A stretch of 64,000 nucleotides of DNA from Eledone cirrhosa. Taxonomy: Eukaryota. The translations under genes and the position numbers were made by a program. This document shows positions 7,761-60,829 of this stretch, piece after piece; position 1 is the stretch's first letter; every line of letters begins with the position of its first letter. Location of the stretch: contig OZ024747.1 in NCBI GenBank assembly GCA_964016885.1, positions 76,632,001 through 76,696,000 on the forward strand, in the 5' to 3' direction. The notes beneath the pieces are model-generated. The model was not told where the DNA came from. It saw only the letters and a list, made by a program, of their open reading frames with translations, and searched no databases.

Positions 7761-10700
7761 CTACAGGCTCATGTAAAGAGAAGGCCCATTCACATGGGCC
7801 ATTCTCGCCACTTTCACCCACCTTTCATAAAAACGACTGGGGTGCAGCACCTCTCTCTCCATCCTGATCCTTCTTCCGAAATGATATCGGAAGAAACGGA
7901 CCAGTTGTTGGCCAGAGAGAAAGGTGCCTGACCTCAGTCCTTTCAGACGCGTCCACCATACAACCTCTTTCGCCATGGCTATTACGCACAGAAACACCGC
8001 CTCTGCTTCATCTTTGAAGGGGGGAGGCGGCTTGATCATTACAATAGACTCGGTGGTCAACCGGATCGGTCCCACCCTTGACAACAGTTGTTCGACATAG
8101 CCCCACAGATCGGCTACGCCCGAGCAGTGTACCAATGCGTGTGCAACGGTTTCCTCGTCGCACACGCATCTGGGACAGATCTTTTTGGCGGGGTCCCTAC
8201 CCGGGCGCCCGTGTCTGTAGAGCCTTTCTCGAACGGGTAAAGCTCCTCGGTAGCACTGCCAGGCCAGGGACTTCTGGAAGTTGTCCATAGGTCCCGGGCT
8301 GAATGTCCTACCGAACAGGCTGGCCAGTTCGTCCTCCTCCATGTCTAGGGCTTCTCCGAGGGCGTCGTCGCACCTGCTGCGTACCAGCCCTCTATAGAAT
8401 GTTGCGATGGAGTCTCCACTGATAACCGGGTCCGCCTGCCAGAGGTCGGTGAGCGCCTGGGCACACTCAGTGTGCCAGGCGCCCAGTTTTCTCGGTCTTT
8501 GCTTGACCCAGGATTGCAGCTTGGTGAGTGAGACGAGTCTGGGAAAGGTTCGTCTCACAAACGAGGCCCACACCGGTTGTCCGGTGAGGAATACGTAGAG
8601 GTGCCGTAGCCTTAATGCGTGTTTACGCATCATTAGCCACGGCATCCCCAGCCCTCCTTTCGAAGGGTGTTGACAGCAGATGGATCTCCTCACCATAGGA
8701 GCCCACCTCTTCCAAAGGAATTGGAAGAGCGCGCGCTCCATCTTGGTGAGGGTTTCCCTTGGGCAGGGCACTACGGTCAGGCGGTAGTAGATGACGGACG
8801 CTATGTAGGTGTTCGCCACCTCCGCCCGACCTTTCAGGGATAGTTTGCAACTGGCCCACTTCTGGGTCAGTGCAAACACCCTGTTCGTAACCTCCGCCCA
8901 GTTTTTCTCCACCTGGAGGTCCGGTCCGAACCAGACCCCGAGCAACTTCACCGGGCCCTCCGTCCAGCGTCCGACGACGCCATCGGAGGGCATCGGTCTG
9001 CCCCTCCACGTGCGGAGTTGCAAACCGATCGACTTGTCCCGGTTCAGCTTAGCCCCTGTGAACTTTTCGTACTCCTCCAGTAAGGTGCCGACCGCCTCGA
9101 TTTCGGAGGCCGTCGACACCATTACTGTCACGTCATCGGCGTAGGCCGACACCGCTTTCCGCAATCCCGGTTCCAAAGGGATGCCCTGCAACAACTCCAA
9201 CTTCCGCAGTAGTGGCTCGAGAGTCAACACATACAGAAGGGAGGAGAGAGGGCACCCTTGTCGGATGGACCGCGCAATTTTGAACGGCTCCGAGAGGTAG
9301 CCGTTCACCTTGACCCTAGAGCAGATGCGGCTGCTGTGCATAGCAGTGATCCAGCCCCTGAAAACGGGTCCGAAGCCTGCCGCCGCTAGCACCGCATCCA
9401 GGTAACCATGGTCGACCCTATCGAACGCCTTAGATTGATCCAAGTTGATCAGAGCCCCACCAAAGCCGGGTTCGTTCCCAACCCTCTCTATGATGTATCG
9501 CATGAGGTGGAGGTTGTCATGGATGGACCTGGACGGGATAGCGCATGTCTGCGCATCTCCCACCAGGTTGCCCACGACAAGCGCCAACCTCTTTGCTAGC
9601 ACCTTGGCCAAAATCTGTAACTCTGTATTTAGCAGAGTTATGGGCCTGAAGTTACTTATTTCGTCCCCCTTGTTCTCGTCCTTCCTCACTAGCGTGACTA
9701 CGCCCTTGGTCACAGTACAGGGAATTCTCCCGTTCTGTTGCCAGTTGCAGTAGACCGCCTCGAGAAGATCGGGGAACAAGTCCGGCATAGCTAGATATAA
9801 TTCGTAAGGAAGACCATCGAGACCCGGGGATTTGCGTTTGCCGCATTGGCTCAGCACGTCCTCTATCTCAGCGGCCGAAATCGGCTCCTCGCAGGACTTC
9901 GCCTCCCTGTCCGAGAGGCGCGGCAGGCCGTCGAGGTATGGACCGAAGTCCACGTTCCCAACCGGCTCCCCGCCCCTCCCGAACAGTCGGGCAAAGTGCC
10001 TTTGAAAGGCCTCACACATCTGCTTAGGCTCAAGAATCGCCCGTCCCTCCAGGTCTCGCAAAGACCGGATGGTGGATTTAGTTCCACTGTTGGCCTCTGT
10101 CACGCGGGCCCAGCTAACAGCGTTGGTCCCCTCGTTCCCTAGAGCACGTATTTTACTTCGGACAACGCAGCCTTCGTGCTTCGCGTCGAAAAACTGGCTC
10201 AAAGCCGTTCTCGACGCTAGCACTCTGGCCACGTCGCCGCTTCTAATTGCCTCTTCTACTCTATCTATTAGCTCCCTTTCCTTCCTATTCCTATCCGCAG
10301 CTAGAACCTTACTAAACTCTATCGAGACTACTCTAATCTCTCTCTTTAGAGATACCCACCACCTGCTGTTGACGATCGCTCCAGTCAACCGTTCCTTAAC
10401 TAACGTACTAATCCGATTCCTGTAGGCTCTACTTGCCGGCAAGGACAAGTTGAGCTTCCAGTAACCGGGGCCCTGTCTATGAGATCTGTCAAGGTTGACC
10501 ATGCAGGTCACTAATTTGTGGTCTGAATAGCCAACCATGCGCATTTTTGGACAACTTAAAAAGTCCTTCTCCTTAATTCTAACTAAGAACCTATCTAGGT
10601 ACGACCTAGATGATCCGCTACGATTTGCCCAAGTCCAGGTTGGCGCAGTCGGAAAATCTAGTCGATATCTATCGGCCAGGTCAAATCGACCGATTAACCC

Positions 10701-11198
10701 TTTGAGGCTATTACACCCCTCTCTATCGGGGCAGGCCCCTACGTAGTCCCAGCGTGCATCTAGGATACCATTCCAGTCCCCCACTAATAGCAAGGAGCGG
10801 GACGTCCCTAGAAAAGTCTCCAGACGATGGAAGAAGTCCGGCCGCATTGACCCGAAAGGGCCGTAGGCGGCTACCAACCTAAACGCTCCGCCTTTACCAC
10901 TGCCAAGGTCCAGAACCACTAGTCGACCCTCCGGGTCCAAATGTACCATCTGTGTTGCGAGACCCAGATGTTTTTGCAGCAGAACGACAACTCCACCCCC
11001 ACCTCCGGGCTGACAGAGAGATACGTGCATCTCAAAGTCATCAAAGGTGGGGGCCAGCTGTCGCACGTTGCTGATCCGGGCCTCGCAAATAACCATCACA
11101 TCTATACGTTGTGACCTGAGGTCATTTAGAAGCATTGCTTGCTTCCAAGTTGAGCCCAGGCCACGCGCATTTAAACAGCCTACTCTTAGCATAGCCAT
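7761..11198 (-). CDS. LINE ORF2p (endonuclease, RT, zinc finger), open reading frame intact
   Basis: Motifs LNARG, GDWN, SDH, QGCPLS, YADD, CPRC..ETVAHALVHC. Clearly homologous to 42046-45465. The first ATG is at 11198; the ORF track starts upstream at a GTG. Confidence 0.96.
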   Translation of the reverse strand: MAMLRVGCLNARGLGSTWKQAMLLNDLRSQRIDVMVICEARISNVRQLAPTFDDFEMHVSLCQPGGGGGVVVLLQKHLGLATQMVHLDPEGRLVVLDLGSGKGGAFRLVAAYGPFGSMRPDFFHRLETFLGTSRSLLLVGDWNGILDARWDYVGACPDREGCNSLKGLIGRFDLADRYRLDFPTAPTWTWANRSGSSRSYLDRFLVRIKEKDFLSCPKMRMVGYSDHKLVTCMVNLDRSHRQGPGYWKLNLSLPASRAYRNRISTLVKERLTGAIVNSRWWVSLKREIRVVSIEFSKVLAADRNRKERELIDRVEEAIRSGDVARVLASRTALSQFFDAKHEGCVVRSKIRALGNEGTNAVSWARVTEANSGTKSTIRSLRDLEGRAILEPKQMCEAFQRHFARLFGRGGEPVGNVDFGPYLDGLPRLSDREAKSCEEPISAAEIEDVLSQCGKRKSPGLDGLPYELYLAMPDLFPDLLEAVYCNWQQNGRIPCTVTKGVVTLVRKDENKGDEISNFRPITLLNTELQILAKVLAKRLALVVGNLVGDAQTCAIPSRSIHDNLHLMRYIIERVGNEPGFGGALINLDQSKAFDRVDHGYLDAVLAAAGFGPVFRGWITAMHSSRICSRVKVNGYLSEPFKIARSIRQGCPLSSLLYVLTLEPLLRKLELLQGIPLEPGLRKAVSAYADDVTVMVSTASEIEAVGTLLEEYEKFTGAKLNRDKSIGLQLRTWRGRPMPSDGVVGRWTEGPVKLLGVWFGPDLQVEKNWAEVTNRVFALTQKWASCKLSLKGRAEVANTYIASVIYYRLTVVPCPRETLTKMERALFQFLWKRWAPMVRRSICCQHPSKGGLGMPWLMMRKHALRLRHLYVFLTGQPVWASFVRRTFPRLVSLTKLQSWVKQRPRKLGAWHTECAQALTDLWQADPVISGDSIATFYRGLVRSRCDDALGEALDMEEDELASLFGRTFSPGPMDNFQKSLAWQCYRGALPVRERLYRHGRPGRDPAKKICPRCVCDEETVAHALVHCSGVADLWGYVEQLLSRVGPIRLTTESIVMIKPPPPFKDEAEAVFLCVIAMAKEVVWWTRLKGLRSGTFLSGQQLVRFFRYHFGRRIRMEREVLHPSRFYERWVKVARMAHVNGPSLYMSL

Positions 11199-11222
11199 GT
11201 TGGTGGTGAAGAGAAAAGGCAC

Positions 11223-17418: not shown

Positions 17419-17557
17419 TAAATATATATACATATCGTCAGTCAATCATAAACATTGAGTGCCAAATAAATTAACTCTGGAGATATAAAAGATATAGACG
17501 CGAAAACCAACCCAAACGAAACAGTAAGTGTGTTCTGTTATTATTTCTGGCAATATT

Positions 17558-18189
<632 letters not shown>

Positions 18190-18191
18190 TA

Positions 18192-18306
18192 TCTCTGATG
18201 ATATGGGATCGATTGTGCATTGGATATCGAATGCTCTACTAAATATATAATATTATAGATGTAGCGAGATCTAGGCAAATGGATGTCTATTGAAACGTAC
18301 GTAAGA
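18192..18306 (+). ncRNA. Degenerate type I hammerhead ribozyme
   Basis: tct-CTGATGA-long stem II-GAAAC(gtac)GTA-aga, then AATAAA. The element runs to (TA)n at about 18500. Confidence 0.6.
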
Positions 18307-26402: not shown

Positions 26403-26687
26403 AAGGATGAAAAATTAGATAGATTGAAGGGACGGGCGGGTTGGAATTGGAAAAAATGTCTTTAGATATATATATACATATATATAATAAATGGAAACTA
26501 TATTTATAAAACCATATTTATTTTATTATATATATTTCAAGGGCAACCAAAGCAAATTATGGTGCGCTTTCATCACATAAAATACAGATTTGTTTTATAA
26601 ACCCGGAAAAAAAACATCCAGGAAGCTCAAACCGTTAAGGTTGTCTTTTTTCCGGGTATGTCAATATTTATTTATAAAACAAATCTG

Positions 26688-26753
26688 TATTTTATCTGAT
26701 GAAAGCTCACCATATTTTGCTTTGGTTGCCCTTGAAATATATATAATAAAATA
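26688..26753 (+). ncRNA. Type I hammerhead in fold-back element 26485-26888
   Basis: tattttat-CTGATGA-aag..ctt-GAAA-tatata-TA-ataaaata. An inverted copy at about 26518-26585 has the core mutated to GTGATGA. Confidence 0.78.
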
Positions 26754-26883
26754 AATACGGTTTTATAAATATAGTTTCCATTTATTAATATATTGTGTAT
26801 TTACTCCACTAACTTGTTGAGTGCTTTATATCAGTTATAAAGATGTTTAAGCTCGTTGAATCCCAACAAATTAAATATAACCT

Positions 26884-26941
<58 letters not shown>

Positions 26942-27099
26942 GGAAGAGACGGCGCTCGACGGTTCAGCAATTGTCGCTTCATAGTTAGTTCCACACTGGG
27001 AATGGCAAGATCTCAGCCGTTGGGCCCCCATCTGTTTCTAATATAGCCATTTCAAGCATCGAGTACTGTGATGAACCATGGTCAACCTAGTTTAATACT

Positions 27100-27145
<46 letters not shown>

Positions 27146-27435
27146 CAAATAACGAAACGAAATTAAATTTCGTTTCGTTTGTAACTCACTTTTGTATGAC
27201 TGACGCTTAAACAATTAAGTTAAAGATGTACATCCATATATGTATACTGAAATACTAGTATGTATATGAATACACACACGTATACATATGTAGATGTACC
27301 AAGTTTTTTTCACTGGTCACTTTACTGTGAGTGGCCAGCTATTCCGTATGTAAACACACAGACAAACCGGTTTTTAGAGTCATACTGGTTTTTGAGGAAA
27401 CACCTTTCCTCTATTCTCCAGAAAGCCAGACAAGG

Positions 27436-27480
27436 AATATTGAACTAGTTTCGTTGTTGTTACAACTCATCAGCAATATT
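27436..27480 (-). ncRNA. Type I hammerhead ribozyme; first of 7 left-arm copies (others start at 27904, 28373, 28841, 29309, 29777, 30245)
   Basis: Exact reverse complement of the motif at 30817-30861. Confidence 0.9.
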
Positions 27481-30400
27481 TACCTATCTTCCGGCCTCTC
27501 TAGAGAATCGTAAAAGCACATAGCGTTATATGCTTTTTCTATGAAAATTAGTAGTGGGCAGACTAATTTGCATAGAGTGTGAGTAAGTACCGGTTCAACG
27601 GAGACGATAAAAACAAATAACGAAACGAAATTAAATTTCGTTTCGTTTGTAACTCACTTTTGTATGACTGACGCTTAAACAATTAAGTTAAAGATGTACA
27701 TCCATATATGTATACTGAAATACTAGTATGTATATGAATACACACACGTATACATATGTAGATGTACCAAGTTTTTTTCACTGGTCACTTTACTGTGAGT
27801 GGCCAGCTATTCCGTATGTAAACACACAGACAAACCGGTTTTTAGAGTCATACTGGTTTTTGAGGAAACACCTTTCCTCTATTCTCCAGAAAGCCAGACA
27901 AGGAATATTGAACTAGTTTCGTTGTTGTTACAACTCATCAGCAATATTTACCTATCTTCCGGCCTCTCTAGAGAATCGTAAAAGCACATAGCGTTATATG
28001 CTTTTTCTATGAAAATTAGTAGTGGGCAGACTAATTTGCATAGAGTGTGAGTAAGTACCGGTTCAACGGAGACGATAAAAACAAATAACGAAACGAAATT
28101 AAATTTCGTTTCGTTTGTAACTCACTTTTGTATGACTGACGCTTAAACAATTAAGTTAAAGATGTACATCCATATATGTATACTGAAATACTAGTATGTA
28201 TATGAATACACACACGTATACATATGTAGATGTACCAAGTTTTTTTTCACTGGTCACTTTACTGTGAGTGGCCAGCTATTCCGTATGTAAACACACAGAC
28301 AAACCGGTTTTTAGAGTCATACTGGTTTTTGAGGAAACACCTTTCCTCTATTCTCCAGAAAGCCAGACAAGGAATATTGAACTAGTTTCGTTGTTGTTAC
28401 AACTCATCAGCAATATTTACCTATCTTCCGGCCTCTCTAGAGAATCGTAAAAGCACATAGCGTTATATGCTTTTTCTATGAAAATTAGTAGTGGGCAGAC
28501 TAATTTGCATAGAGTGTGAGTAAGTACCGGTTCAACGGAGACGATAAAAACAAATAACGAAACGAAATTAAATTTCGTTTCGTTTGTAACTCACTTTTGT
28601 ATGACTGACGCTTAAACAATTAAGTTAAAGATGTACATCCATATATGTATACTGAAATACTAGTATGTATATGAATACACACACGTATACATATGTAGAT
28701 GTACCAAGTTTTTTTCACTGGTCACTTTACTGTGAGTGGCCAGCTATTCCGTATGTAAACACACAGACAAACCGGTTTTTAGAGTCATACTGGTTTTTGA
28801 GGAAACACCTTTCCTCTATTCTCCAGAAAGCCAGACAAGGAATATTGAACTAGTTTCGTTGTTGTTACAACTCATCAGCAATATTTACCTATCTTCCGGC
28901 CTCTCTAGAGAATCGTAAAAGCACATAGCGTTATATGCTTTTTCTATGAAAATTAGTAGTGGGCAGACTAATTTGCATAGAGTGTGAGTAAGTACCGGTT
29001 CAACGGAGACGATAAAAACAAATAACGAAACGAAATTAAATTTCGTTTCGTTTGTAACTCACTTTTGTATGACTGACGCTTAAACAATTAAGTTAAAGAT
29101 GTACATCCATATATGTATACTGAAATACTAGTATGTATATGAATACACACACGTATACATATGTAGATGTACCAAGTTTTTTTCACTGGTCACTTTACTG
29201 TGAGTGGCCAGCTATTCCGTATGTAAACACACAGACAAACCGGTTTTTAGAGTCATACTGGTTTTTGAGGAAACACCTTTCCTCTATTCTCCAGAAAGCC
29301 AGACAAGGAATATTGAACTAGTTTCGTTGTTGTTACAACTCATCAGCAATATTTACCTATCTTCCGGCCTCTCTAGAGAATCGTAAAAGCACATAGCGTT
29401 ATATGCTTTTTCTATGAAAATTAGTAGTGGGCAGACTAATTTGCATAGAGTGTGAGTAAGTACCGGTTCAACGGAGACGATAAAAACAAATAACGAAACG
29501 AAATTAAATTTCGTTTCGTTTGTAACTCACTTTTGTATGACTGACGCTTAAACAATTAAGTTAAAGATGTACATCCATATATGTATACTGAAATACTAGT
29601 ATGTATATGAATACACACACGTATACATATGTAGATGTACCAAGTTTTTTTCACTGGTCACTTTACTGTGAGTGGCCAGCTATTCCGTATGTAAACACAC
29701 AGACAAACCGGTTTTTAGAGTCATACTGGTTTTTGAGGAAACACCTTTCCTCTATTCTCCAGAAAGCCAGACAAGGAATATTGAACTAGTTTCGTTGTTG
29801 TTACAACTCATCAGCAATATTTACCTATCTTCCGGCCTCTCTAGAGAATCGTAAAAGCACATAGCGTTATATGCTTTTTCTATGAAAATTAGTAGTGGGC
29901 AGACTAATTTGCATAGAGTGTGAGTAAGTACCGGTTCAACGGAGACGATAAAAACAAATAACGAAACGAAATTAAATTTCGTTTCGTTTGTAACTCACTT
30001 TTGTATGACTGACGCTTAAACAATTAAGTTAAAGATGTACATCCATATATGTATACTGAAATACTAGTATGTATATGAATACACACACGTATACATATGT
30101 AGATGTACCAAGTTTTTTTCACTGGTCACTTTACTGTGAGTGGCCAGCTATTCCGTATGTAAACACACAGACAAACCGGTTTTTAGAGTCATACTGGTTT
30201 TTGAGGAAACACCTTTCCTCTATTCTCCAGAAAGCCAGACAAGGAATATTGAACTAGTTTCGTTGTTGTTACAACTCATCAGCAATATTTACCTATCTTC
30301 CGGCCTCTCTAGAGAATCGTAAAAGCACATAGCGTTATATGCTTTTTCTATGAAAATTAGTAGTGGGCAGACTAATTAGTAGTGGGCAGACTAATTTGTC

Positions 30401-30816
30401 TGGCTTTCTGGAGAATAGAGGAAAGGTGTTTCCTCAAAAACCAGTATGACTCTAAAAACCGGTTTGTCTGTGTGTTTACATACGGAATAGCTGGCCACTC
30501 ACAGTAAAGTGACCAGTGAAAAAAACTTGGTACATCTACATATGTATACGTGTGTGTATTCATATACATACTAGTATTTCAGTATACATATATGGATGTA
30601 CATCTTTAACTTAATTGTTTAAGCGTCAGTCATACAAAAGTGAGTTACAAACGAAACGAAATTTAATTTCGTTTCGTTATTTGTTTTTATCGTCTCCGTT
30701 GAACCGGTACTTACTCACACTCTATGCAAATTAGTCTGCCCACTACTAATTTTCATAGAAAAAGCATATAACGCTATGTGCTTTTACGATTCTCTAGAGA
30801 GGCCGGAAGATAGGTA

Positions 30817-30861
30817 AATATTGCTGATGAGTTGTAACAACAACGAAACTAGTTCAATATT
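30817..30861 (+). ncRNA. Type I hammerhead ribozyme; first of 7 right-arm copies (others start at 31285, 31753, 32221, 32689, 33157, 33625)
   Basis: aatattg-CTGATGA-gttgt(aaca)acaac-GAAAC(ta)GTT-caatatt: 7-bp stem I, intact core, 5-bp stem II, minimal palindromic stem III (actagt), GUU cleavage triplet. Confidence 0.9.
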
Positions 30862-33800
30862 CCTTGTCTGGCTTTCTGGAGAATAGAGGAAAGGTGTTTC
30901 CTCAAAAACCAGTATGACTCTAAAAACCGGTTTGTCTGTGTGTTTACATACGGAATAGCTGGCCACTCACAGTAAAGTGACCAGTGAAAAAAACTTGGTA
31001 CATCTACATATGTATACGTGTGTGTATTCATATACATACTAGTATTTCAGTATACATATATGGATGTACATCTTTAACTTAATTGTTTAAGCGTCAGTCA
31101 TACAAAAGTGAGTTACAAACGAAACGAAATTTAATTTCGTTTCGTTATTTGTTTTTATCGTCTCCGTTGAACCGGTACTTACTCACACTCTATGCAAATT
31201 AGTCTGCCCACTACTAATTTTCATAGAAAAAGCATATAACGCTATGTGCTTTTACGATTCTCTAGAGAGGCCGGAAGATAGGTAAATATTGCTGATGAGT
31301 TGTAACAACAACGAAACTAGTTCAATATTCCTTGTCTGGCTTTCTGGAGAATAGAGGAAAGGTGTTTCCTCAAAAACCAGTATGACTCTAAAAACCGGTT
31401 TGTCTGTGTGTTTACATACGGAATAGCTGGCCACTCACAGTAAAGTGACCAGTGAAAAAAACTTGGTACATCTACATATGTATACGTGTGTGTATTCATA
31501 TACATACTAGTATTTCAGTATACATATATGGATGTACATCTTTAACTTAATTGTTTAAGCGTCAGTCATACAAAAGTGAGTTACAAACGAAACGAAATTT
31601 AATTTCGTTTCGTTATTTGTTTTTATCGTCTCCGTTGAACCGGTACTTACTCACACTCTATGCAAATTAGTCTGCCCACTACTAATTTTCATAGAAAAAG
31701 CATATAACGCTATGTGCTTTTACGATTCTCTAGAGAGGCCGGAAGATAGGTAAATATTGCTGATGAGTTGTAACAACAACGAAACTAGTTCAATATTCCT
31801 TGTCTGGCTTTCTGGAGAATAGAGGAAAGGTGTTTCCTCAAAAACCAGTATGACTCTAAAAACCGGTTTGTCTGTGTGTTTACATACGGAATAGCTGGCC
31901 ACTCACAGTAAAGTGACCAGTGAAAAAAACTTGGTACATCTACATATGTATACGTGTGTGTATTCATATACATACTAGTATTTCAGTATACATATATGGA
32001 TGTACATCTTTAACTTAATTGTTTAAGCGTCAGTCATACAAAAGTGAGTTACAAACGAAACGAAATTTAATTTCGTTTCGTTATTTGTTTTTATCGTCTC
32101 CGTTGAACCGGTACTTACTCACACTCTATGCAAATTAGTCTGCCCACTACTAATTTTCATAGAAAAAGCATATAACGCTATGTGCTTTTACGATTCTCTA
32201 GAGAGGCCGGAAGATAGGTAAATATTGCTGATGAGTTGTAACAACAACGAAACTAGTTCAATATTCCTTGTCTGGCTTTCTGGAGAATAGAGGAAAGGTG
32301 TTTCCTCAAAAACCAGTATGACTCTAAAAACCGGTTTGTCTGTGTGTTTACATACGGAATAGCTGGCCACTCACAGTAAAGTGACCAGTGAAAAAAACTT
32401 GGTACATCTACATATGTATACGTGTGTGTATTCATATACATACTAGTATTTCAGTATACATATATGGATGTACATCTTTAACTTAATTGTTTAAGCGTCA
32501 GTCATACAAAAGTGAGTTACAAACGAAACGAAATTTAATTTCGTTTCGTTATTTGTTTTTATCGTCTCCGTTGAACCGGTACTTACTCACACTCTATGCA
32601 AATTAGTCTGCCCACTACTAATTTTCATAGAAAAAGCATATAACGCTATGTGCTTTTACGATTCTCTAGAGAGGCCGGAAGATAGGTAAATATTGCTGAT
32701 GAGTTGTAACAACAACGAAACTAGTTCAATATTCCTTGTCTGGCTTTCTGGAGAATAGAGGAAAGGTGTTTCCTCAAAAACCAGTATGACTCTAAAAACC
32801 GGTTTGTCTGTGTGTTTACATACGGAATAGCTGGCCACTCACAGTAAAGTGACCAGTGAAAAAAACTTGGTACATCTACATATGTATACGTGTGTGTATT
32901 CATATACATACTAGTATTTCAGTATACATATATGGATGTACATCTTTAACTTAATTGTTTAAGCGTCAGTCATACAAAAGTGAGTTACAAACGAAACGAA
33001 ATTTAATTTCGTTTCGTTATTTGTTTTTATCGTCTCCGTTGAACCGGTACTTACTCACACTCTATGCAAATTAGTCTGCCCACTACTAATTTTCATAGAA
33101 AAAGCATATAACGCTATGTGCTTTTACGATTCTCTAGAGAGGCCGGAAGATAGGTAAATATTGCTGATGAGTTGTAACAACAACGAAACTAGTTCAATAT
33201 TCCTTGTCTGGCTTTCTGGAGAATAGAGGAAAGGTGTTTCCTCAAAAACCAGTATGACTCTAAAAACCGGTTTGTCTGTGTGTTTACATACGGAATAGCT
33301 GGCCACTCACAGTAAAGTGACCAGTGAAAAAAACTTGGTACATCTACATATGTATACGTGTGTGTATTCATATACATACTAGTATTTCAGTATACATATA
33401 TGGATGTACATCTTTAACTTAATTGTTTAAGCGTCAGTCATACAAAAGTGAGTTACAAACGAAACGAAATTTAATTTCGTTTCGTTATTTGTTTTTATCG
33501 TCTCCGTTGAACCGGTACTTACTCACACTCTATGCAAATTAGTCTGCCCACTACTAATTTTCATAGAAAAAGCATATAACGCTATGTGCTTTTACGATTC
33601 TCTAGAGAGGCCGGAAGATAGGTAAATATTGCTGATGAGTTGTAACAACAACGAAACTAGTTCAATATTCCTTGTCTGGCTTTCTGGAGAATAGAGGAAA
33701 GGTGTTTCCTCAAAAACCAGTATGACTCTAAAAACCGGTTTGTCTGTGTGTTTACATACGGAATAGCTGGCCACTCACAGTAAAGTGACCAGTGAAAAAA

Positions 33801-34003
33801 ACTTGGTACATCTACATATGTATACGTGTGTGTATTCATATACATACTAGTATTTCAGTATACATATATGGATGTACATCTTTAACTTAATTGTTTATAT
33901 ATATATATATTATAGTTAAAAGAGAAACAAAAAACAAAATCGAAGCGAAGAGGCAGTACAAAGTGTTAATATTAGGTTCACGCTGGAGAGTGAGGGTGGG
34001 GAA

Positions 34004-34035: not shown

Positions 34036-35033
34036 AAAAGTGGCCAGGAAAAGAGTTCCGAGGGTGTGAGGGGGAGTGGTGGAAAGACACATATATATAT
34101 ATATATATATATGGGAAAAAGTTTAACCCCGACGGCAGAGCTCAAGCCGTTTCGACGGCTATTTCTGGACTGAAATAGCCGTCGAAACGGCTTGAGCTCT
34201 GCCGTCGGGATTAAACTTTTTCCTATTACCCACTCTACTACCCTAAGTATTGAGTACTCTGGTGCGTTATGGTCCATCTGGTTCCTTACCACACCTCCTT
34301 CGTAATATATATATATATATATATATATATACGTACGTCCCGGGTTGAGTCGGGGATAACCACAGTAAGTAAGGTACTCAATACATGGCAGAGTAAATTT
34401 TTTTATTTTATAGAAGGAGCTTCTACAGGACTAGTACTGTTTCATTCAGATCTGGATGAAACAGTACTAGTCCTGTAGAAGCTCCTTCTATAAAATATAT
34501 ATATATATATAAGTGTGTGTGTGTATGTTTGTTATGTTTAATAGATTTACAGCTAACTGTAGACTAAAACATTTCTGTGCAGATACGTGACACGGAATAG
34601 ATATTGAAGTTGTTTATCTCTTTAATAATTCCGTCTCTAGTAACCAAAGTATTAAACATTATCATTGTTTCCTTATGGTTATCGTTGGTCACACATGTGT
34701 TGTTTGTTTTCGTTCGACTTTGGGATATTTTTTGCTTTACATACACACACACACACATAGATTCACACACACACACACCAACACACATACGCACACACAC
34801 ATCAACACACACACACATAAACTGACATACAAACACACATATATATATGAATGTGTATGTGTATGTGTATATGTATGTGTATGTATGTGTGTGTCTGTGC
34901 TTATATATATATATATATATGTGTGTGTGTATGTGTATGTATATATATATATAAATACATTTATGTATGTATATATATGTATGTATGTATAAATATGTAT
35001 GTATGTGTATATATATATATATATATATACATT

Positions 35034-39244: not shown

Positions 39245-39913
39245 GTTACTGGAGAGCTTAGATTAAAGGAATCATTATTATTGAAATTTTGTTGAATACT
39301 TTTAAATATACATGAAATTAGAATCTTTATAATTTTTTAAAATTATAATTACTTTTTGAAATACCAAAAGAATTTCCTCTCGGGTGTGTGTAGGGGGCTG
39401 GAGGTAGGCAGGTGTTTCATCAACTTTGACACTGTTTACCCTACAAGTAATGTCCAGATGTGTAGATCAGTCCACTCTAACACTAGGATCAGAGTTATGT
39501 CACACTAGTGAATGAGTTTAGATTGTATGTTCTATGTTTTACATGGGTTGATTCTAATGTGTTTTCTGAATTTCTCAGTCATCCCAGGATTTCTAGCTCC
39601 ACAACAAACACAAATTGGCTGACTTGCGTACTAAGGATGTCATAAATACCTTCTTCTTCTTCTTCTCCTTCTTCTTCTTCTTATTATTATTATTATTGAA
39701 TGCCATGGTTGGCGGAGGCTCGGCTCTGTAAGGTATAGTAATTTTTAACCGTTAAAACAATTGTAAATTGTTTAAAACTTGAACCAAATTGTTGATAAAG
39801 ACACCCTCCTCCTCGTGAGAGGGGTCTTTCTGTCCGTTATTTGGCCCTTCGGGGTTAAATAACCAGTTATTGGGGTTTTGTACCCAAAATTTCATTTTAA
39901 ACAAAAAAACAAC

Positions 39914-42010
39914 ATGGCTACGAAAAAGAAATTTCATACGTCACTCCCACTCATTCCGTCTTCTTCTTCCTCAATCATCACTACAGCAGAGAGAAGATTG
40001 TCTCTCTCCCTCCCTTCTTTAAATGTGTCTCTCTCCCTCCCTTCTCTTTCGCAAGTGACGAAAGAAAAGAAAAGTCTCGTGCAAAGCGTGCAAGGTTTCT
40101 CCACGACGACGACGACAGCGACGAAACAGGTGTGCGGGAAATACGAAAACCCAGTTCATTCGTCTGACGTCAGGAATAATAGCAGTAGCAGCCGTAATAA
40201 CAACAGCAACAGTGACAATGAAAACAACAGTAGCAGCCGCAACAGCATCACCAGCAGCATAAACAACAACAGCATTAGCAGCAGCAACACCAACAACAAC
40301 CACAGCAACAGCGGCGGAGGCAGTAGTCGTAGTACCTGCAGCAACAACAAAAGTACCAGCAGCTCTGACGACAACAACAACAGCAGAGAAAAACCAATCT
40401 CATTTGCAGGTATTGCGAAAAACTTGGAAACAATCCTCATAACAAATGAGGAATTAGAGGAAGCGAAGAAGATGGTGACAAAGAATGGACACCGAGCAAT
40501 CTGCAAGGCAGCGGAAAAATTTTTCGAAACCCAAGAGCACTGTACGGTCACGTACCGTACAGTAAGTACAAAATCCCGTAGGGTGGAAAGAGCCACAGAG
40601 GCCCAAATACAAAAAGCCTTGGGGTCTGTGTGGCAGCGGAAAACGCACATCACCCGAGGCAAAAAATATGCCACCGTAGACGTACTTTTTGCCACACCCC
40701 AGGAGGCAAAGGCCCAATCAGTAGTGACCCTAAGGAGCGAGGAAATGGTGTTGGTGCCCTCCTACTGCGGGCAAAAAATTGTGAGGGTCAAACTGACCCA
40801 CGTCCCCCCCGGAATGACCCCTTCTTGGCTGGCCGCGCCTGTCCTCGTCGGAATCGAGGACAAAACAACTGTACTGCAAGTACAGAAAAAAGTAAGAGAA
40901 GATTGGGTCGGCTCCTCCATTGAGATGCTAATCCAAACCAACCAGGAGTGCATCGAAGCTATCCCGGATGTGATAGACTTCGATAACGGCACTCAACTGC
41001 CCATAAGTGTTGAGGGCAAACGCCCGAAATGCTTTCGCTGTGGATCGAAGACTCACCTCAGGGCCTTCTGCAACGAGAAGACCCTGAGAAAGGAGAAAAC
41101 CCCCCTCCTTCCGAATCCGGCTCCACGGCTACCAGCAACAGGACAAGCGGCAACCAGGAACGATAGGTCCGTGGCACCCATACCCACTCCACGGAAATCA
41201 AAGACAGCAGCAGCAGTGGAAATATTAACAACAACAACAGCAATACCAAATGCAGCTGCAACAGAGACTCCAGTGCAAACATCACCAACAACAACAAGTG
41301 AAAGAGTGGAGCTGGTACCCCTCCCCGACCTTACAGAATCAGACATGGAGTGTGAGGTGGGAGAGGGATGGCAAAAGGTCGCAAGAAGGCACAAACGCAG
41401 AAGCAGCGCATCGTCGCCTTTGAAAAGGGAGGAAAGAAATGAGAAAAGGGTAAAGTCTACTGCAAAGAGACCCACAGCAGCAACACCACCAACACCATCA
41501 CCACCCACACCAGCACCACCATCACCACCGGCGACAACCCCACCGCCAACAACACCTTCAACACCACCACCACAAGCACCAACATCGCAAACACAACAAC
41601 AAAACACACACACCCAGCAACAACGACAAGAAAATAGCAGAACCACACCCCACCCCCAGAAAAACAAATGCACGGCAATAAACACACACAACAAGAAACT
41701 AATGACTTACATAATTGAACACACAGACATTTCACAACAGGACTACATAATACCAGCACCAATCAAAACGCCAACTAACATAAGACTGCTAAAAATAGCA
41801 CAGAAACAATACACAAACATTAAAACGAAATTCCCCAACGCAGTTGGTGATTTCAGGGACCTAGGAGGAACCATCAATCGAAGAGTATATTCAGACATTC
41901 TCTTAGAAGAGCCGACGACCAGCCGAAGGGACGATTCAACGGTCCCTTCACCAGACGATCAAGTGAAAAGGGATGTAAAAACCATCCCTCCTCTACCAAA
42001 AGTACGGTAA
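39914..42010 (+). CDS. LINE ORF1p, nucleic-acid-binding protein with a CCHC zinc knuckle
   Basis: Open frame of about 698 aa from the first ATG. It contains CFRCGSKTHLRAFC (CX2CX4HX4C) and S/N-rich and P/T-rich linkers, and lies directly upstream of ORF2. Confidence 0.88.
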   Translation: MATKKKFHTSLPLIPSSSSSIITTAERRLSLSLPSLNVSLSLPSLSQVTKEKKSLVQSVQGFSTTTTTATKQVCGKYENPVHSSDVRNNSSSSRNNNSNSDNENNSSSRNSITSSINNNSISSSNTNNNHSNSGGGSSRSTCSNNKSTSSSDDNNNSREKPISFAGIAKNLETILITNEELEEAKKMVTKNGHRAICKAAEKFFETQEHCTVTYRTVSTKSRRVERATEAQIQKALGSVWQRKTHITRGKKYATVDVLFATPQEAKAQSVVTLRSEEMVLVPSYCGQKIVRVKLTHVPPGMTPSWLAAPVLVGIEDKTTVLQVQKKVREDWVGSSIEMLIQTNQECIEAIPDVIDFDNGTQLPISVEGKRPKCFRCGSKTHLRAFCNEKTLRKEKTPLLPNPAPRLPATGQAATRNDRSVAPIPTPRKSKTAAAVEILTTTTAIPNAAATETPVQTSPTTTSERVELVPLPDLTESDMECEVGEGWQKVARRHKRRSSASSPLKREERNEKRVKSTAKRPTAATPPTPSPPTPAPPSPPATTPPPTTPSTPPPQAPTSQTQQQNTHTQQQRQENSRTTPHPQKNKCTAINTHNKKLMTYIIEHTDISQQDYIIPAPIKTPTNIRLLKIAQKQYTNIKTKFPNAVGDFRDLGGTINRRVYSDILLEEPTTSRRDDSTVPSPDDQVKRDVKTIPPLPKVR

Positions 42011-42045
42011 GTGGTCTTTCCCATCTTTTCCACTCTATTTTAAAC

Positions 42046-45000
42046 ATGACCTCACTCAGAATAGGCAGCATAAATGCGCGTGGCTTGGGGTCGTCATGGA
42101 AGCAGGGTCACCTGCTCAACGACCTCAGGTCACTAAACATAGATGTAGTGGCCATCAGCGAGACCAGAATCTCCGAAGCACGGGCCTTCGCACCGATCTT
42201 CGGCGGCTACGATGTGTACGCATCTCCCAGCCGTCCTGGATCGGGTGGAGGAGTTGCTGTGCTTTTTCGGAGAGGTTTGGATCTCGCCATACGGGCCATC
42301 TTCCTGGACCCAGAGGGTAAGCTGGTGGTGCTGGACGTGACCAGCGGAGACGGGCAAGCTTTCAGGCTAGTGGCCGTCTATGCCCCGACAGGAGCAGGGC
42401 GGCCTGATTTCTTCCGGCGTCTGGAGACCTTTCTTGGAACGTCCCGCTCTTTAGTGTTAGTGGGCGACTGGAACGGGATCTTAGATGCACGCTGGGACTG
42501 TGTGGGATTAGCGGATAGGGGTGGAGGGTGCAAGAGCCTCACCAACCTGCTCAGGCGTTTTGAACTGTCTGACAGGTACCGATTGGATTTCCCGAATGTG
42601 CCAATGTGGACTTGGACAAACCGCATAGGGTCATCCAGATCATATCTAGATAGAGTATTTTGTAGGGAAATAGATAGGTCTAGCATAGGCTGTCCACAAT
42701 TCAAGATAGTCAGCTACACGGACCACAAATTCGTGACCTGTGTGCTTGACTTAGATAGGCTTCATAGACGAGGACCCGGCTACTGGAAGCTAAACGCGTC
42801 CTTACCAGCGCGCAAGGCCTACAGAGACCGGATTAGCGAACTAGTTAAGCGGGCGTTGACGGGGGCCATCGTCAACAACAAGTGGTGGTTTGCTCTGAAA
42901 AGAGCGATTAGAATAGAATCGATTAGGTTTAGTAAGGCTTTAGCAATAGAGAAAAATAGAGCAGAGGGAGAACTAGTTAGAAAATTAGACGAGGCGCTTA
43001 GCAAAGGCATTGCGACCGACGTGCTTGCGGCGAAATTGGCCCTTGACCAATTCTTCAATGCAAAGCACGAAGGCTGCGTTGTCAGAGCTAGGGTGCGTGC
43101 TCTCAGACACGAGGGGACGAAAGCCGTTCAATGGGCCCGAGTGGCGGAGGCGCGTCGTGGCAACAAAGCCACGATCCGGTCTTTGGTGGACCACGACGGG
43201 CGCATGCTACTCGATCCCGGGCAAATGTGTGAAGCTTTTCAGCGACACTTCGCTCAGCTGTTCGGGGGCAGCGGGGGGCCGGGTAGAGGGATGGACTTTA
43301 GTGTCTACCTCGACGGACTGCCGCGGCTCTCGGCCACTGAGGCGAGGTGTTGCGAAAAGCCGATAACAGCCGCTGAAGTACGGGAGGCAATGACTGGCTG
43401 CACAAGGGGTAAATCGCCTGGTTTGGATGGTCTGCCCTATGAACTTTACGTACAGATGCCAGACTTGTTCGGAGGCCTCTTGGCGGACGTCTACTGCAAC
43501 TGGCAACAGAACGGGAGAATTCCCAGTTCTGTGAGCCGAGGAGCGGTGGCACTGCTGAGAAAGGATCCGAACAAGGGGGATAACATAGACAATTTCCGGC
43601 CCATAACTCTGCTAAACACAGAGTTTAAGATTTTGGCCAAGGTGCTAGCAAAGAGGTTGGCGCTTGTCGTTGGTGGTCTGGTGGGAGAGGCGCAGACATG
43701 CGCCATTCCCGACAGATCCATCCACGACAACCTCCACCTCATGCGATACATCGTAGAGAGGGTAGCTAGGGAACCTGGCACGGGTGGGTCCTTGATCAAT
43801 TTAGATCAGTCGAAAGCTTTCGATAGGGTCGACCATCGTTACCTAGCGGCAGTCCTGAGGGCGGCTGGCTTTGGGCCCGTCTTCAGAGGCTGGATCGCTG
43901 CCATGCACAGCGACATCTGCTCTGTGGTGAGAGTGAACGGTCACCTGTCGGAACCGTTCAACATCATGCGCTCGGTCCGCCAAGGATGTCCCCTCTCGTC
44001 CCTCTTGTACGTATTGACTCTCGAGCCATTACTGCACAAACTGGAGACGTTGAGGGGAGTCCCGCGCGAACTAGGATGCGGAAGATCCGTGTCAGCATAT
44101 GCGGACGATGTCACCGTAGTGGTGTCGAACGCCAAACACATCGAGGCGATCGGCACTACACTAAGAGAATACGAAGCGGTGACAGGAGCAATGATCAACC
44201 AGGAAAAGTCAGTGGGCCTGCAGCTCGGCACCTGGAGAGGCAGGTCCATGCCGTCCAACAGCGTCGTCGGGCGCTGGACGGACGGACCGGTTAAATTGCT
44301 AGGGGTCTGGTTCGGTCCGGACCTCCAGACGGACAAAAACTGGGACGAGGTGACGAGCAGGGTGGCTTCTCTCACCCAGAAATGGGCGGAGAGGAAGCTA
44401 TCCCTGAAAGGTCGAGCGGAGGTGGCTAACGCGTACATCGCGTCTGTCATCTGCTACCGCCTAACCGTCGTACCTTGTCCTAAGCCTCGCCTGACTGCGC
44501 TGGAGCGTTTGCTCTTTCGCTTTTTGTGGAAGGGACGTGCTCCGATGGTCAGGCGGTCCATCTGTTGTCAACACCCGCTACGTGGAGGGCTGGGCATGCC
44601 GTGGCTGATGATGCGCAGGCACGCGCTCAGGCTACGACATCTCCACCTCTTCCTCGACGGTGATCAGGTGTGGTCGCCGTTTGCTAGACGCGTTTTTCCC
44701 CAGCTCGTTTCCTTGACGGAGCTGCAGTCCTGGGTCAAGCGAAGACCGAGAGGGAGCGCCTGGAGACTGGAATGTCTTCAGGCGCTCACAGCCCTCGACC
44801 AATCGGGCAATGTGATCGGTGGAAACTCCACCTCGGCGTTCTATAGAGGATTAGTGGAGGGGAAGAGCGACGACGTACTTGGGGAAACTCTAGGCGTCGA
44901 CGAAAATCAACTAGCCAATCTCTTCGGAAGAACTTTCGGGCCAGGGCCTATGGACAACTTCCAGAAATCTCTGGCCTGGCAGTGCTACCGAGGAGCCTTG

Positions 45001-45465
45001 CCAGTTCGGGATAAACTCTACAGGCATGGAGGTGCCGTCAGCCGGGCATGTCCGAGATGCGCGCAGGGCGACGAAACCGTCCTGCACGCACTCGTCCAGT
45101 GTCCGAAAATTGCTGACTTGTGGGTTTATGTCGAACACCTGCTGTCGCGTTTAGGACGGATCCAGCTATCATCTGAGTCTATCGTGAGGATTGCCCCGCC
45201 CTCCTCCTTTAGCCGGGAAGGGCAGGCAGTTTTTATCTGTCTGGTGGCCATGGCGAAAGAGATAGTATGGTGGACACGTTTGAAAGGGCTGAAGACAAGC
45301 ACTTACCTCTTCGGTGATGCTCTGATTGACTTTTTCAAATTTCATTTGAAAAGGAAAATCAGAGTAGAGAAGGAAGTGCTCTCTTCCCAGCATTTTGTTG
45401 AAAGATGGGTGAGAGAAGCAAGAATGGCCCGAGTGAATGGGCCGACTCTGAGTATATATCTGTAA
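42046..45465 (+). CDS. LINE ORF2p: apurinic-like endonuclease, reverse transcriptase and C-terminal zinc finger
   Basis: 1139 aa. Endonuclease motifs INARG, SETR, GDWN, LDR, TDH. RT motifs KSPGLDG, FRPITLLN, DQSKAFDRV, QGCPLS, YADD. C-terminal CPRC..ETVLHALVQC. Confidence 0.97.
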   Translation: MTSLRIGSINARGLGSSWKQGHLLNDLRSLNIDVVAISETRISEARAFAPIFGGYDVYASPSRPGSGGGVAVLFRRGLDLAIRAIFLDPEGKLVVLDVTSGDGQAFRLVAVYAPTGAGRPDFFRRLETFLGTSRSLVLVGDWNGILDARWDCVGLADRGGGCKSLTNLLRRFELSDRYRLDFPNVPMWTWTNRIGSSRSYLDRVFCREIDRSSIGCPQFKIVSYTDHKFVTCVLDLDRLHRRGPGYWKLNASLPARKAYRDRISELVKRALTGAIVNNKWWFALKRAIRIESIRFSKALAIEKNRAEGELVRKLDEALSKGIATDVLAAKLALDQFFNAKHEGCVVRARVRALRHEGTKAVQWARVAEARRGNKATIRSLVDHDGRMLLDPGQMCEAFQRHFAQLFGGSGGPGRGMDFSVYLDGLPRLSATEARCCEKPITAAEVREAMTGCTRGKSPGLDGLPYELYVQMPDLFGGLLADVYCNWQQNGRIPSSVSRGAVALLRKDPNKGDNIDNFRPITLLNTEFKILAKVLAKRLALVVGGLVGEAQTCAIPDRSIHDNLHLMRYIVERVAREPGTGGSLINLDQSKAFDRVDHRYLAAVLRAAGFGPVFRGWIAAMHSDICSVVRVNGHLSEPFNIMRSVRQGCPLSSLLYVLTLEPLLHKLETLRGVPRELGCGRSVSAYADDVTVVVSNAKHIEAIGTTLREYEAVTGAMINQEKSVGLQLGTWRGRSMPSNSVVGRWTDGPVKLLGVWFGPDLQTDKNWDEVTSRVASLTQKWAERKLSLKGRAEVANAYIASVICYRLTVVPCPKPRLTALERLLFRFLWKGRAPMVRRSICCQHPLRGGLGMPWLMMRRHALRLRHLHLFLDGDQVWSPFARRVFPQLVSLTELQSWVKRRPRGSAWRLECLQALTALDQSGNVIGGNSTSAFYRGLVEGKSDDVLGETLGVDENQLANLFGRTFGPGPMDNFQKSLAWQCYRGALPVRDKLYRHGGAVSRACPRCAQGDETVLHALVQCPKIADLWVYVEHLLSRLGRIQLSSESIVRIAPPSSFSREGQAVFICLVAMAKEIVWWTRLKGLKTSTYLFGDALIDFFKFHLKRKIRVEKEVLSSQHFVERWVREARMARVNGPTLSIYL

Positions 45466-60323: not shown

Positions 60324-60829
60324 ATATTGTTATACTTTGGGAGGGTCATGTTGCCAATAAGAAACACACGCACCAGTTGCTTTCACTCCAATTTATTATA
60401 AATTAAATTTATATATTTACGAATTTATAAATTTCCGGTTGGTTGGTTCCATCACCGGACCGTTGTTCATATATTGTCAAAGTTCTTTCGTCACACATTC
60501 TATGACCTCTTCAGTGACTGGGGATTCTTCTCTTTGTTTTGTGCCTCTCCTTCGTTCTGTCCTACGCCGTCTTGAAAAACAAGATGACATAGGACAGAAC
60601 AAAGGAGAGGCACAAAACAGAGAAGAATCCCCAGTCACGAAAGAGGTCACAGAATGTGTGACGAAAGAATTTTGCCAATATATGAACAACCGGTTGTGGA
60701 ACCAACCAACCAACCGGAAATTTATAAATTCTTAAATTTATAAATTTAACTTATAATATATTGGAGTGAAAGCAACTTTGTGCGTGTGTTTCTTATTGGC
60801 AACATGACCCTCCCAAAGTATAACAATAT
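60324..60829. repeat. ~505-bp imperfect palindrome (inverted HHR-bearing element)
   Basis: Arms atattgttatactttgggagggtcatg... and ...catgaccctcccaaagtataacaatat, centred near 60576. Confidence 0.9.
60476..60518 (-). ncRNA. Type I hammerhead in a 505-bp palindromic element
   Basis: Reverse complement: gtca-CTGAAGA-ggtcat(agaatgt)gtgac-GAAAgaacTT-tgac. The mirror copy at 60634-60676 has the core mutated to CGAAAGA. Confidence 0.72.

What the first reader, a model, noticed from the sequence alone, without database searches (positions are those of the whole stretch)
30340..30420. The inversion junction and permuted ends suggest rolling-circle reverse transcription with two priming events
Seen: the ribozyme-sense strands of the two arms point outward. 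Their 3' ends fuse to (TA)n at different points of the monomer, ...gttatttgttttta|t on the left and ...cttaattgttta|t on the right, each via AT microhomology. The centre has a 19-bp tandem duplication (aattagtagtgggcagact at 30355-30373 and 30374-30392), a 3-bp overlap (ttg) and a micro-hairpin cagac/gtctg. The right arm starts only 9 nt downstream of the predicted cleavage site. The arms are of similar length (about 3.26 and 3.50 kb). Inference: both ends of a cut (TA)n primed cDNA synthesis on a circular or multimeric template, or the cDNA folded back, giving a 6.7-kb palindrome in one event.
Basis: partly seen in the sequence, partly recalled or inferred. Interest (0 to 1): 0.8.

Follow-up and report, generated by a model that had tools for sequence, protein, structure and literature searches.

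The report
Twin-primed ribozyme retroelement, two fixed starts
This 6.7-kb mirror-image array is one of thousands of copies of a small ribozyme-bearing jumping RNA whose two arms almost always end at two different fixed points 69 bases apart, which likely means that both ends of a cut in the chromosome each primed copying from their own start site on one RNA, probably a circle, a step that would explain the long-puzzling inverted shape of Penelope-type insertions.

Summary
The junction is as described and is no one-off: the 468-nt hammerhead monomer has 5,142 exact core matches in the genome. The 3' ends are not permuted. They fall at two fixed sites, A (monomer 229-235) and B (301-305). Of 65 two-armed arrays scored, 60 have one A and one B end; none is A+A or B+B. 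Either arm can be longer, and dozens of 20-60-bp mini insertions join A and B arms sharing no sequence (B+B: 1). That argues against fold-back and for priming from both DNA ends. Both arms share the locus haplotype in 15 of 15 long arrays and 5' ends show no sharp pile-up, which favours one circular template. Nearness to the cleavage site is chance (p 0.24). It is a non-autonomous Penelope-type retrozyme. Inverted copies, one-sided tails and two start sites are published; I did not find the one-site-per-end rule in print. The scan earlier noted similar Penelope palindromes in other genomes. No reads confirm this junction; no partner element or RNA was found.

The parts
27102..27141 (.). Left (TA)n target tract
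   Evidence: TRF
27139..30377 (-). Left arm, 6.92 tandem 468-nt units, 3' end at site B (monomer 304), 5' end at monomer 343
27139..27207 (-). 69-nt 'tail' (monomer 236-304) present at this outer end only; contains a 13-bp hairpin
   Evidence: equivalence to the PLE tail is inferred from PMC8557442 and PMC11167929
30355..30392 (-). 19-bp tandem duplication at the inner end of the left arm; the unit is bounded by a 4-nt direct repeat (AATT)
   Evidence: slippage origin is inferred
30396..30398 (.). 3-bp microhomology (TTG) joining the two arms head to head
30396..33897 (+). Right arm, 7.48 identical units, 5' end at monomer 10, 3' end at site A (monomer 235)
30806..30877 (+). Type I hammerhead of one unit (7 per arm), 2-bp palindromic helix III, predicted cut after 30854 (GUU triplet)
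   Evidence: Rfam HH9 37.7 bits, E 6.7e-08, below the gathering score of 52 (no hit at gathering level); fold; 7+7 cores
33896..33910 (.). Right (TA)n target tract

Best explanation
The array is a head-to-head insertion of a non-coding hammerhead repeat whose two arms end at two different fixed sites, and it was likely made in one event by the reverse transcriptase-endonuclease of a Penelope-like element acting in trans, which would cut both strands of a (TA)n tract and extend each DNA end from its own start site on the same, probably circular, RNA. Shown: the geometry, the fixed sites A and B 69 nt apart, their one-of-each use, the shared haplotype of both arms, free 5' ends, and short overlaps or templated duplications at the centre. 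Inferred: a two-active-site (dimeric) complex binds the tail region once, so one DNA end is primed at A and the other at B. Both enzymes then run round a 468-nt circle, displacing each other's cDNA, and stop independently. The two cDNA 3' ends anneal through a few bases (here TTG, after a 19-nt slip) and prime each other's second strand.
For: One-of-each rule: 60 of 65 two-armed arrays among 94 loci are A+B, 0 A+A, 0 B+B; the 5 others are 3 A+B with later damage and 2 unclassifiable. In the 27 loci chosen only by the ribozyme core, 15 of 17 two-armed arrays are A+B and none is homotypic. Pairing of junction hits on C1 0-82 Mb: 42 of 43 outward pairs are A+B; the exception is a four-arm locus A/B/B/A. 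Of the 29 loci not scored as two-armed, 12 carry a short opposite arm, each of the complementary type. Mini insertions with disjoint arms: 39 forward-strand matches for B+A (plus 75 partly redundant reverse matches, control 0) against 1 locus for B+B; 3 of 3 opened A+A candidates are A+B. A arm longer in 25, B arm longer in 35 of 60. One template: in 15 long arrays 46 substitutions are fixed in both arms and 0 in one arm only, with 12 different haplotypes. Circle: 98 of 120 arms extend past the predicted cleavage site; 36 unit-specific changes are not shared in register; densest 14-nt window of 5' ends 11 of 120, p 0.14. By contrast, short copies of an autonomous PLE family in this genome pile up at one 5' point about 30 nt after a TATA box (15 of 25 arms). 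That family (RT plus C-terminal GIY-YIG) also has two ends 64-68 nt apart, one per arm. Literature: a purified PLE protein cleaves and extends both strands, starts at two internal sites that bound the tail, and is predicted to be a dimer (PMC11167929).
Against: No RNA, circle or self-cleavage was observed here. No autonomous element with sequence like the monomer was found in 30 of at least 150 GIY-YIG loci. One substitution is shared in register by both arms (L048), as a linear or multi-unit template predicts; three further in-register calls in L117 look like near-fixed variants. In vitro, uncleaved RNA was the dominant PLE substrate. Some long arms carry period-2 or period-3 variants confined to one arm (L037/38, L109/110, L113), so arrays also grow after insertion. 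5' ends are not fully uniform (12-bin chi-square p 0.01; 6 ends within -4..+5 of the cut against 2.3 expected, p 0.03, post hoc). 17 of 94 loci show one arm only. One B+B mini locus exists and 6 of 9 A+A candidates were not opened. This junction is absent from the contigs of another sample.
Confidence: 0.66

Rival explanations
1. Twin priming at A and B as above, but on a long uncleaved linear transcript of a tandem source array rather than on a monomer circle.
For: Unprocessed RNA was the main PLE substrate in vitro. L048 shares one unit-specific change in register in both arms. PLE-type hammerheads cleave poorly in vitro (PMC4209133 passages).
Against: 36 unit-specific changes are not shared in register; 12 haplotypes among 15 arrays, each fixed across up to 38 units, point to a single-unit bottleneck at most insertions. 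No shared 5' boundary, unlike the linear-template PLE family. Linear copying cannot regenerate array length.
Confidence: 0.16
2. Dual priming: the two DNA ends are extended on two separate RNA molecules held by an asymmetric protein dimer.
For: It gives the same geometry (dual priming was postulated for L1, PMC2837659 passages). Arm lengths are only weakly correlated.
Against: Both arms share the haplotype in 15 of 15 arrays although 12 haplotypes exist, so one source would have to dominate each cell. Strict A+B use is simplest on one molecule.
Confidence: 0.08
3. Self-priming or fold-back: one cDNA folds back and copies itself, and the endonuclease trims the second end at the other site (close to the self-priming idea of Arkhipova et al. 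2013 and the EN-mediated resolution of Craig et al. 2021).
For: 6 of 60 junctions lie with both 5' ends in one self-complementary stretch (L045, L066, L070, L115, L138, L157). Junction palindromes were the published argument (PMC3846280).
Against: 15 of 60 arrays fit neither copying direction. In 12 of 24 young arrays (at least 98.5% identity) the A arm is too long to be a copy of the B arm. Mini insertions have disjoint arms. In this window the bases after the hairpin are not a fold-back copy. Later central deletions could blur these tests but are unlikely in the young copies.
Confidence: 0.04
4. The insertion was short and the arms were lengthened and homogenised afterwards by unequal exchange, as in satellite DNA, so array length says nothing about the template.
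For: One-arm periodic variants in L037/38, L109/110, L113.
Against: This window's 14 units differ by one homopolymer base only. Conversion tracts stay within one arm, yet fixed variants span both arms. It does not explain the A+B rule.
Confidence: 0.04
5. Assembly or read fold-back artefact.
For: No read or contig available to me spans this junction.
Against: The flanks are not mirrored, the arms end at different sites and the same rule holds at 60 of 65 loci. Contigs of public runs of another sample show other inversion joints and (TA)n loose ends at A and B.
Confidence: 0.02

Closest known systems
Metazoan non-LTR retrozymes (Cervera and de la Pena 2020, PMC7229834; Li, Clavereau and Pollet 2026, bioRxiv 10.64898/2026.07.22.740005)
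   Same: Non-coding, AT-rich tandem repeats with one type I hammerhead per unit; circular RNA intermediate and PLE mobilisation are proposed there.
   Different: In the passages I saw, neither paper describes head-to-head arms, fixed 3' start sites or a tail ('inverted' 0 and 'head-to-head' 0 occurrences in the first; 'tail' 0 and 'inverted' only in a reference in the second). The unit here is 468 nt.
Endonuclease-bearing Penelope-like elements with inverted pLTR and one-sided tail (Arkhipova et al. 2013, PMC3846280; Craig et al. 2021, PMC8557442)
   Same: Head-to-head inverted 5'-truncated copy, an extension at one end only, (TA)n targets, junction overlap.
   Different: No ORF; the tail is 69 nt rather than 30-40; arms are multi-unit concatemers (up to 27 units in one arm); the tail is near-obligate rather than optional. 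Those papers attribute the structure to self-priming or EN-mediated resolution.
Poseidon from Anolis carolinensis in vitro (Frangieh et al. 2024, PMC11167929)
   Same: Two internal reverse-transcription start sites bounding the tail, AT-rich target, both strands cut and extended, predicted dimer.
   Different: That work reports no strand difference in start site and, in the two of four parts I read, does not pair the two ends of single products or use a circular template.
LINE-1 twin priming and postulated dual priming (as described in PMC2837659)
   Same: Two inverted fragments with 3' ends outward, joined with little microhomology.
   Different: In L1 it is a variant pathway with a poly(A) first primer and a variable second site, leaving an internal deletion. 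Here both sites are fixed, there is no poly(A), it is the usual outcome, and the arms overlap many times over.

Membership tests
Non-LTR retrozyme | Tandem repeat with a type I hammerhead in each unit | tested here: met
   468-nt period; 7+7 cores; HH9 model E 6.7e-08 but below gathering score; palindromic 2-bp helix III as in PMC4209133
Non-LTR retrozyme | No protein-coding capacity, low GC | tested here: met
   No ORF of 150 aa or more in 27139-33897; GC 0.35
Non-LTR retrozyme | Dispersed, mobile family | tested here: met
   5,142 exact core matches; 1,009 and 1,147 forward-strand matches to the A and B junction patterns
Non-LTR retrozyme | Transcribed, self-cleaves and accumulates as circular RNA | not testable with these tools
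   No RNA holder listed; contigs cannot show ends or circles
Non-LTR retrozyme | Absence of PBS and PPT motifs | not tested
   Not searched; no LTR-flanked body is seen
Penelope-like element insertion | Head-to-head inverted, 5'-truncated copy | tested here: met
   65 of 94 loci two-armed by script, 12 more with a short second arm
Penelope-like element insertion | Tail at one end only | tested here: met
   69 nt here against 30-40 published; 60 of 65
Penelope-like element insertion | AT-rich or (TA)n target | tested here: met
Autonomous Penelope-like element | RT plus GIY-YIG ORF in cis | tested here: not met
   such ORFs exist elsewhere in the genome
Derivative of a specific PLE family | Sequence homology to an autonomous element's pLTR | tested here: inconclusive
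   None above background in 30 of at least 150 GIY-YIG loci; family I matches in tail length only
Penelope-like element insertion | Target-site duplication | not testable with these tools
   Hidden in (TA)n; no empty site found
LINE-1 twin priming | Poly(A)-primed first arm, variable second site, internal deletion | tested here: not met
   Both sites fixed, no poly(A), arms overlap; it works alike but is not this pathway

The most novel reading that the evidence does not exclude
Penelope-type integration is obligate twin priming. One enzyme pair grips one RNA at the tail and primes each end of a double-strand cut from a different fixed site, which explains the head-to-head repeats and the one-sided tail of all endonuclease-bearing PLEs. 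On a ribozyme-made RNA circle the two enzymes chase each other in a double rolling circle and write multi-kilobase palindromes in one step. This genome holds thousands of such records, down to 21-bp insertions made only of the two start sites.
Probability: 0.5. Interest if true: 0.82.

Novelty: new variant of a known kind. Interest (0 to 1): 0.64.

Why it matters
How PLEs make their tandem and inverted structures is called undefined in PMC8557442, and the steps after priming are called unvalidated in PMC11167929. The one-site-per-end rule turns this into a precise prediction for an existing in vitro system and argues against the published self-priming model. It also ties a retrozyme to PLE enzymes by mechanism rather than by co-occurrence. 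It gives genomic evidence for rolling-circle reverse transcription of an animal circular RNA, so far a hypothesis (PMC7229834 discussion). A reverse transcriptase that builds both strands of an insert from both ends of a cut is also of interest for genome writing.

Tried and rejected
Reads: no RNA holder listed. Contigs of X1, X2, X3 and X13 (at most 2 samples of one study, with a fixed difference at 30332) do not cover 30381-30387 and show no joint for this junction; a hole proves nothing, and these are probably other individuals. X21 gave 0 of 12.8 million reads and X5 10 contigs at low depth, so the many other organism labels are no evidence of horizontal transfer. Empty site: the left flank is an old repeat with no close paralogue (next best 70-78% identity). 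Partner element: not found (in one search many 3' regions were cut short at internal TA tracts). Most's output for PLE families II-IV was swamped by microsatellite hits and not used. Pile-up of 5' ends at the cleavage site: not significant. The cluster near monomer 115-122 as a shared transcript start: rejected, because in most such arrays the other arm runs further upstream (lengths); a pause at a hairpin is likelier. The CAGAC/GTCTG hairpin as primer: rejected. Rows left out of the count: L001-L030 (overlapping pieces of loci refetched whole), L071-L100 (PLE loci), L101 (four arms, read separately), L130 (no array) and L131 (duplicate of L120). Microhomology (overlap of 3 or more in 27 of 60 against 6.7% in the null) rests on BLAST end points and is inflated by overrun. 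The family I pile-up (15 of 25) uses arms I picked by hand with 5' ends above 2390 and a window chosen after seeing the data. Earlier-finding look-ups by first words, by genome and by sequence returned nothing.

Full report
What is there. Window 27139-33897 is two arrays of a 468-nt unit placed head to head between (TA)n tracts. I number the unit from the predicted hammerhead cut (after 30854). The left arm runs on the minus strand from 343 through 6.92 units to 304; the right arm runs on the plus strand from 10 through 7.48 units to 235. The centre holds an exact 19-bp duplication and a 3-bp overlap. The 14 units differ by one homopolymer base, so the insertion is young. Each unit has a type I hammerhead core with a 2-bp palindromic helix III; it aligns to Rfam HH9 at E 6.7e-08, below the gathering score. 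There is no long ORF.

It is a family. The window lies in a 3.0-Gb genome. The 31-nt ribozyme core has 5,142 exact matches. I fetched loci three ways: best matches to the monomer, the first listed core matches on contig C1, and junction-pattern hits on C1. The second set is unbiased as to ends; the third is biased towards A or B at one end.

The 3' ends are two fixed sites, used one per arm. Arms join (TA)n at site A (229-235) or site B (301-305). Among 94 loci the script found 65 two-armed: 60 A+B, none A+A or B+B, and 5 other. Three of the five are A+B with a junction duplication, an internal deletion or a later LINE insertion (L040, L111, L051). One joins a sister family (L050) and one abuts another minisatellite (L057). 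Of the 29 remaining loci, 12 have a short second arm of the complementary type and 17 show one arm only. In the core-selected set, 15 of 17 two-armed arrays are A+B. Pairing pattern hits over the first 82 Mb of C1 gave 42 A+B of 43 outward pairs, with both orientations about equal (23 and 19); the exception is a four-arm locus. A genome-wide search for minimal insertions gave 39 forward and 75 partly redundant reverse matches for B+A, control 0, against one B+B locus. A looser A+A pattern gave 9 loci, about control level; 3 of 3 opened were A+B. The smallest insertion seen is about 21 bp and consists only of the two ends (L152).

This is priming from both ends, not fold-back. A fold-back arm must be a copy of part of the other arm. 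The A arm is longer in 25 and the B arm in 35 of 60 arrays. 15 of 60, including this window, fit neither direction, and in 12 of 24 young arrays the A arm is too long to be a trimmed copy of the B arm. Mini insertions have disjoint arms. Here the bases after the CAGAC/GTCTG hairpin continue the right arm rather than copy the left. The centres show short overlaps, or short duplications of adjacent sequence as in this window. That is what annealing of two cDNA 3' ends would leave (inference).

One template, probably a circle. In 15 arrays with long arms on both sides, 46 substitutions are fixed in both arms and none in one arm only, across 12 haplotypes. 36 unit-specific changes are not shared in register; one clearly is (L048), which counts against a monomer circle. 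98 of 120 arms extend past the predicted cleavage site, and the variant lists show no recurrent scar there. 5' ends are spread round the unit: 10 of 120 within 15 nt of the cut (7.7 expected), densest 14-nt window 11 of 120, p 0.14, though mildly non-uniform (p 0.01). As an internal control, short copies of an autonomous PLE family stop at one point about 30 nt after a TATA box in 15 of 25 hand-picked arms, as expected of a linear RNA. Some long arms carry one-arm periodic variants, so later unequal exchange adds length at some loci.

The enzyme. The genome has at least 150 GIY-YIG matches. Of 10 ORFs scanned, 5 hit both RT and GIY-YIG, 2 RT only and 3 GIY-YIG only. Family I (938-aa ORF) inserts in (TA)n, forms head-to-head arms and has two ends 64-68 nt apart. 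They are paired one per arm in L086, L090, L092, L093 and in L193, L195, L198, L199, L200, L202, L203, L204, L207 of 16 further loci. One of the 16 (L196) has an unclear second end and the rest show one arm; L192 has two B ends 3.3 kb apart that look like separate insertions. No sequence link between any sampled PLE and the monomer was found, so the partner is unidentified.

Literature, and what I saw of it. PMC11167929: parts 1-2 of 4 (abstract, main text, start of methods); its supplementary figures, not seen, may bear on end pairing. PMC8557442, PMC3846280, PMC4209133, PMC2837659: passages. PMC7229834: passages and the Discussion; its Supplementary Figure S9 was not seen. bioRxiv 10.64898/2026.07.22.740005: part 1 of 5 and passages; supplements closed. 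Inverted copies, one-sided tails, (TA)n targeting, two start sites, two-strand extension and the circle hypothesis are therefore known. I did not find the one-site-per-end rule, or two-armed rolling-circle arrays, in searches. The library lacks most subscription papers, including earlier PLE reviews that those papers cite.

Earlier findings of this scan. Notes e1-7858806 and e1-9982989 describe head-to-head PLE palindromes in other genomes; they are unchecked AI notes. The first pointed me to PMC3846280.

Limits. No read spans this junction in the runs I could lay; no RNA data; no empty site; the samples are weighted to one contig and to copies with exact motifs.

Verdict. It is a new variant of a known kind: a PLE-type retrozyme whose copies record obligate two-site twin priming (my estimate about 0.85), most likely on one RNA circle (joint 0.66). 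Interest 0.64.

Noticed in passing
L086:7330-7420 region (family I PLE; also L090, L092, L093, L195, L199, L200, L203, L207): Short copies of an autonomous PLE family start about 30 nt after a TATA box, a likely pLTR transcription start. A hammerhead-like core downstream reads UUGAAAA instead of CUGANGA, a possible compensatory variant (not validated).
   Followed up: partly
Whole genome: Family I has 6,564 exact matches to its B-end junction pattern but 1,038 to its A-end pattern; subfamily variation at A or many one-armed copies could explain this.
   Followed up: partly
window 31192-31199 (monomer 338-345): An ATGCAAAT octamer in each unit, also present in a diverged sister repeat. From recall, such motifs drive snRNA-type promoters and newt satellite 2; a search did not return a paper I read to confirm it.
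   Followed up: no
L092:1890-2460 (minus strand); L050:4817-6386: A sister tandem hammerhead repeat, about 68% like the monomer over 145-384, ends in (TA)n at the position equivalent to site B. In L050 it appears fused to an arm of this family.
   Followed up: partly
L037+L038, L109+L110, L113: Long arms carry variants repeating every 2 or 3 units in one arm only; one arm reaches 27 units. Early satellite-like higher-order repeats.
   Followed up: partly
L101:2144-4883: Four-arm locus A/B/B/A whose two B ends are fused in the tail hairpin.
   Followed up: partly
window 17555-18192, 26485-26787, about 34112-34222, about 34398-34500, 60375-60777: Other fold-back elements near (TA)n; the last has hammerhead-like cores in both arms that match a PLE 3' region seen in L080, L083 and L094.
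   Followed up: no
window 7761-11222 (minus) and 39863-45465 (plus): Two long endonuclease-RT ORFs (1,153 and 1,204 aa; Exo_endo_phos, RVT_1, zf-RVT), the second with an upstream ORF: apparently intact L1/Tx1-like elements.
   Followed up: partly
window 26940-27101: The left flank is itself the end of an older repeat family (about 75% identity at 40 listed places) that also ends at (TA)n.
   Followed up: partly
L120 and L131 (C1, 17.7 kb apart): The same two-armed insertion occurs twice, a local duplication or assembly duplicate.
   Followed up: no
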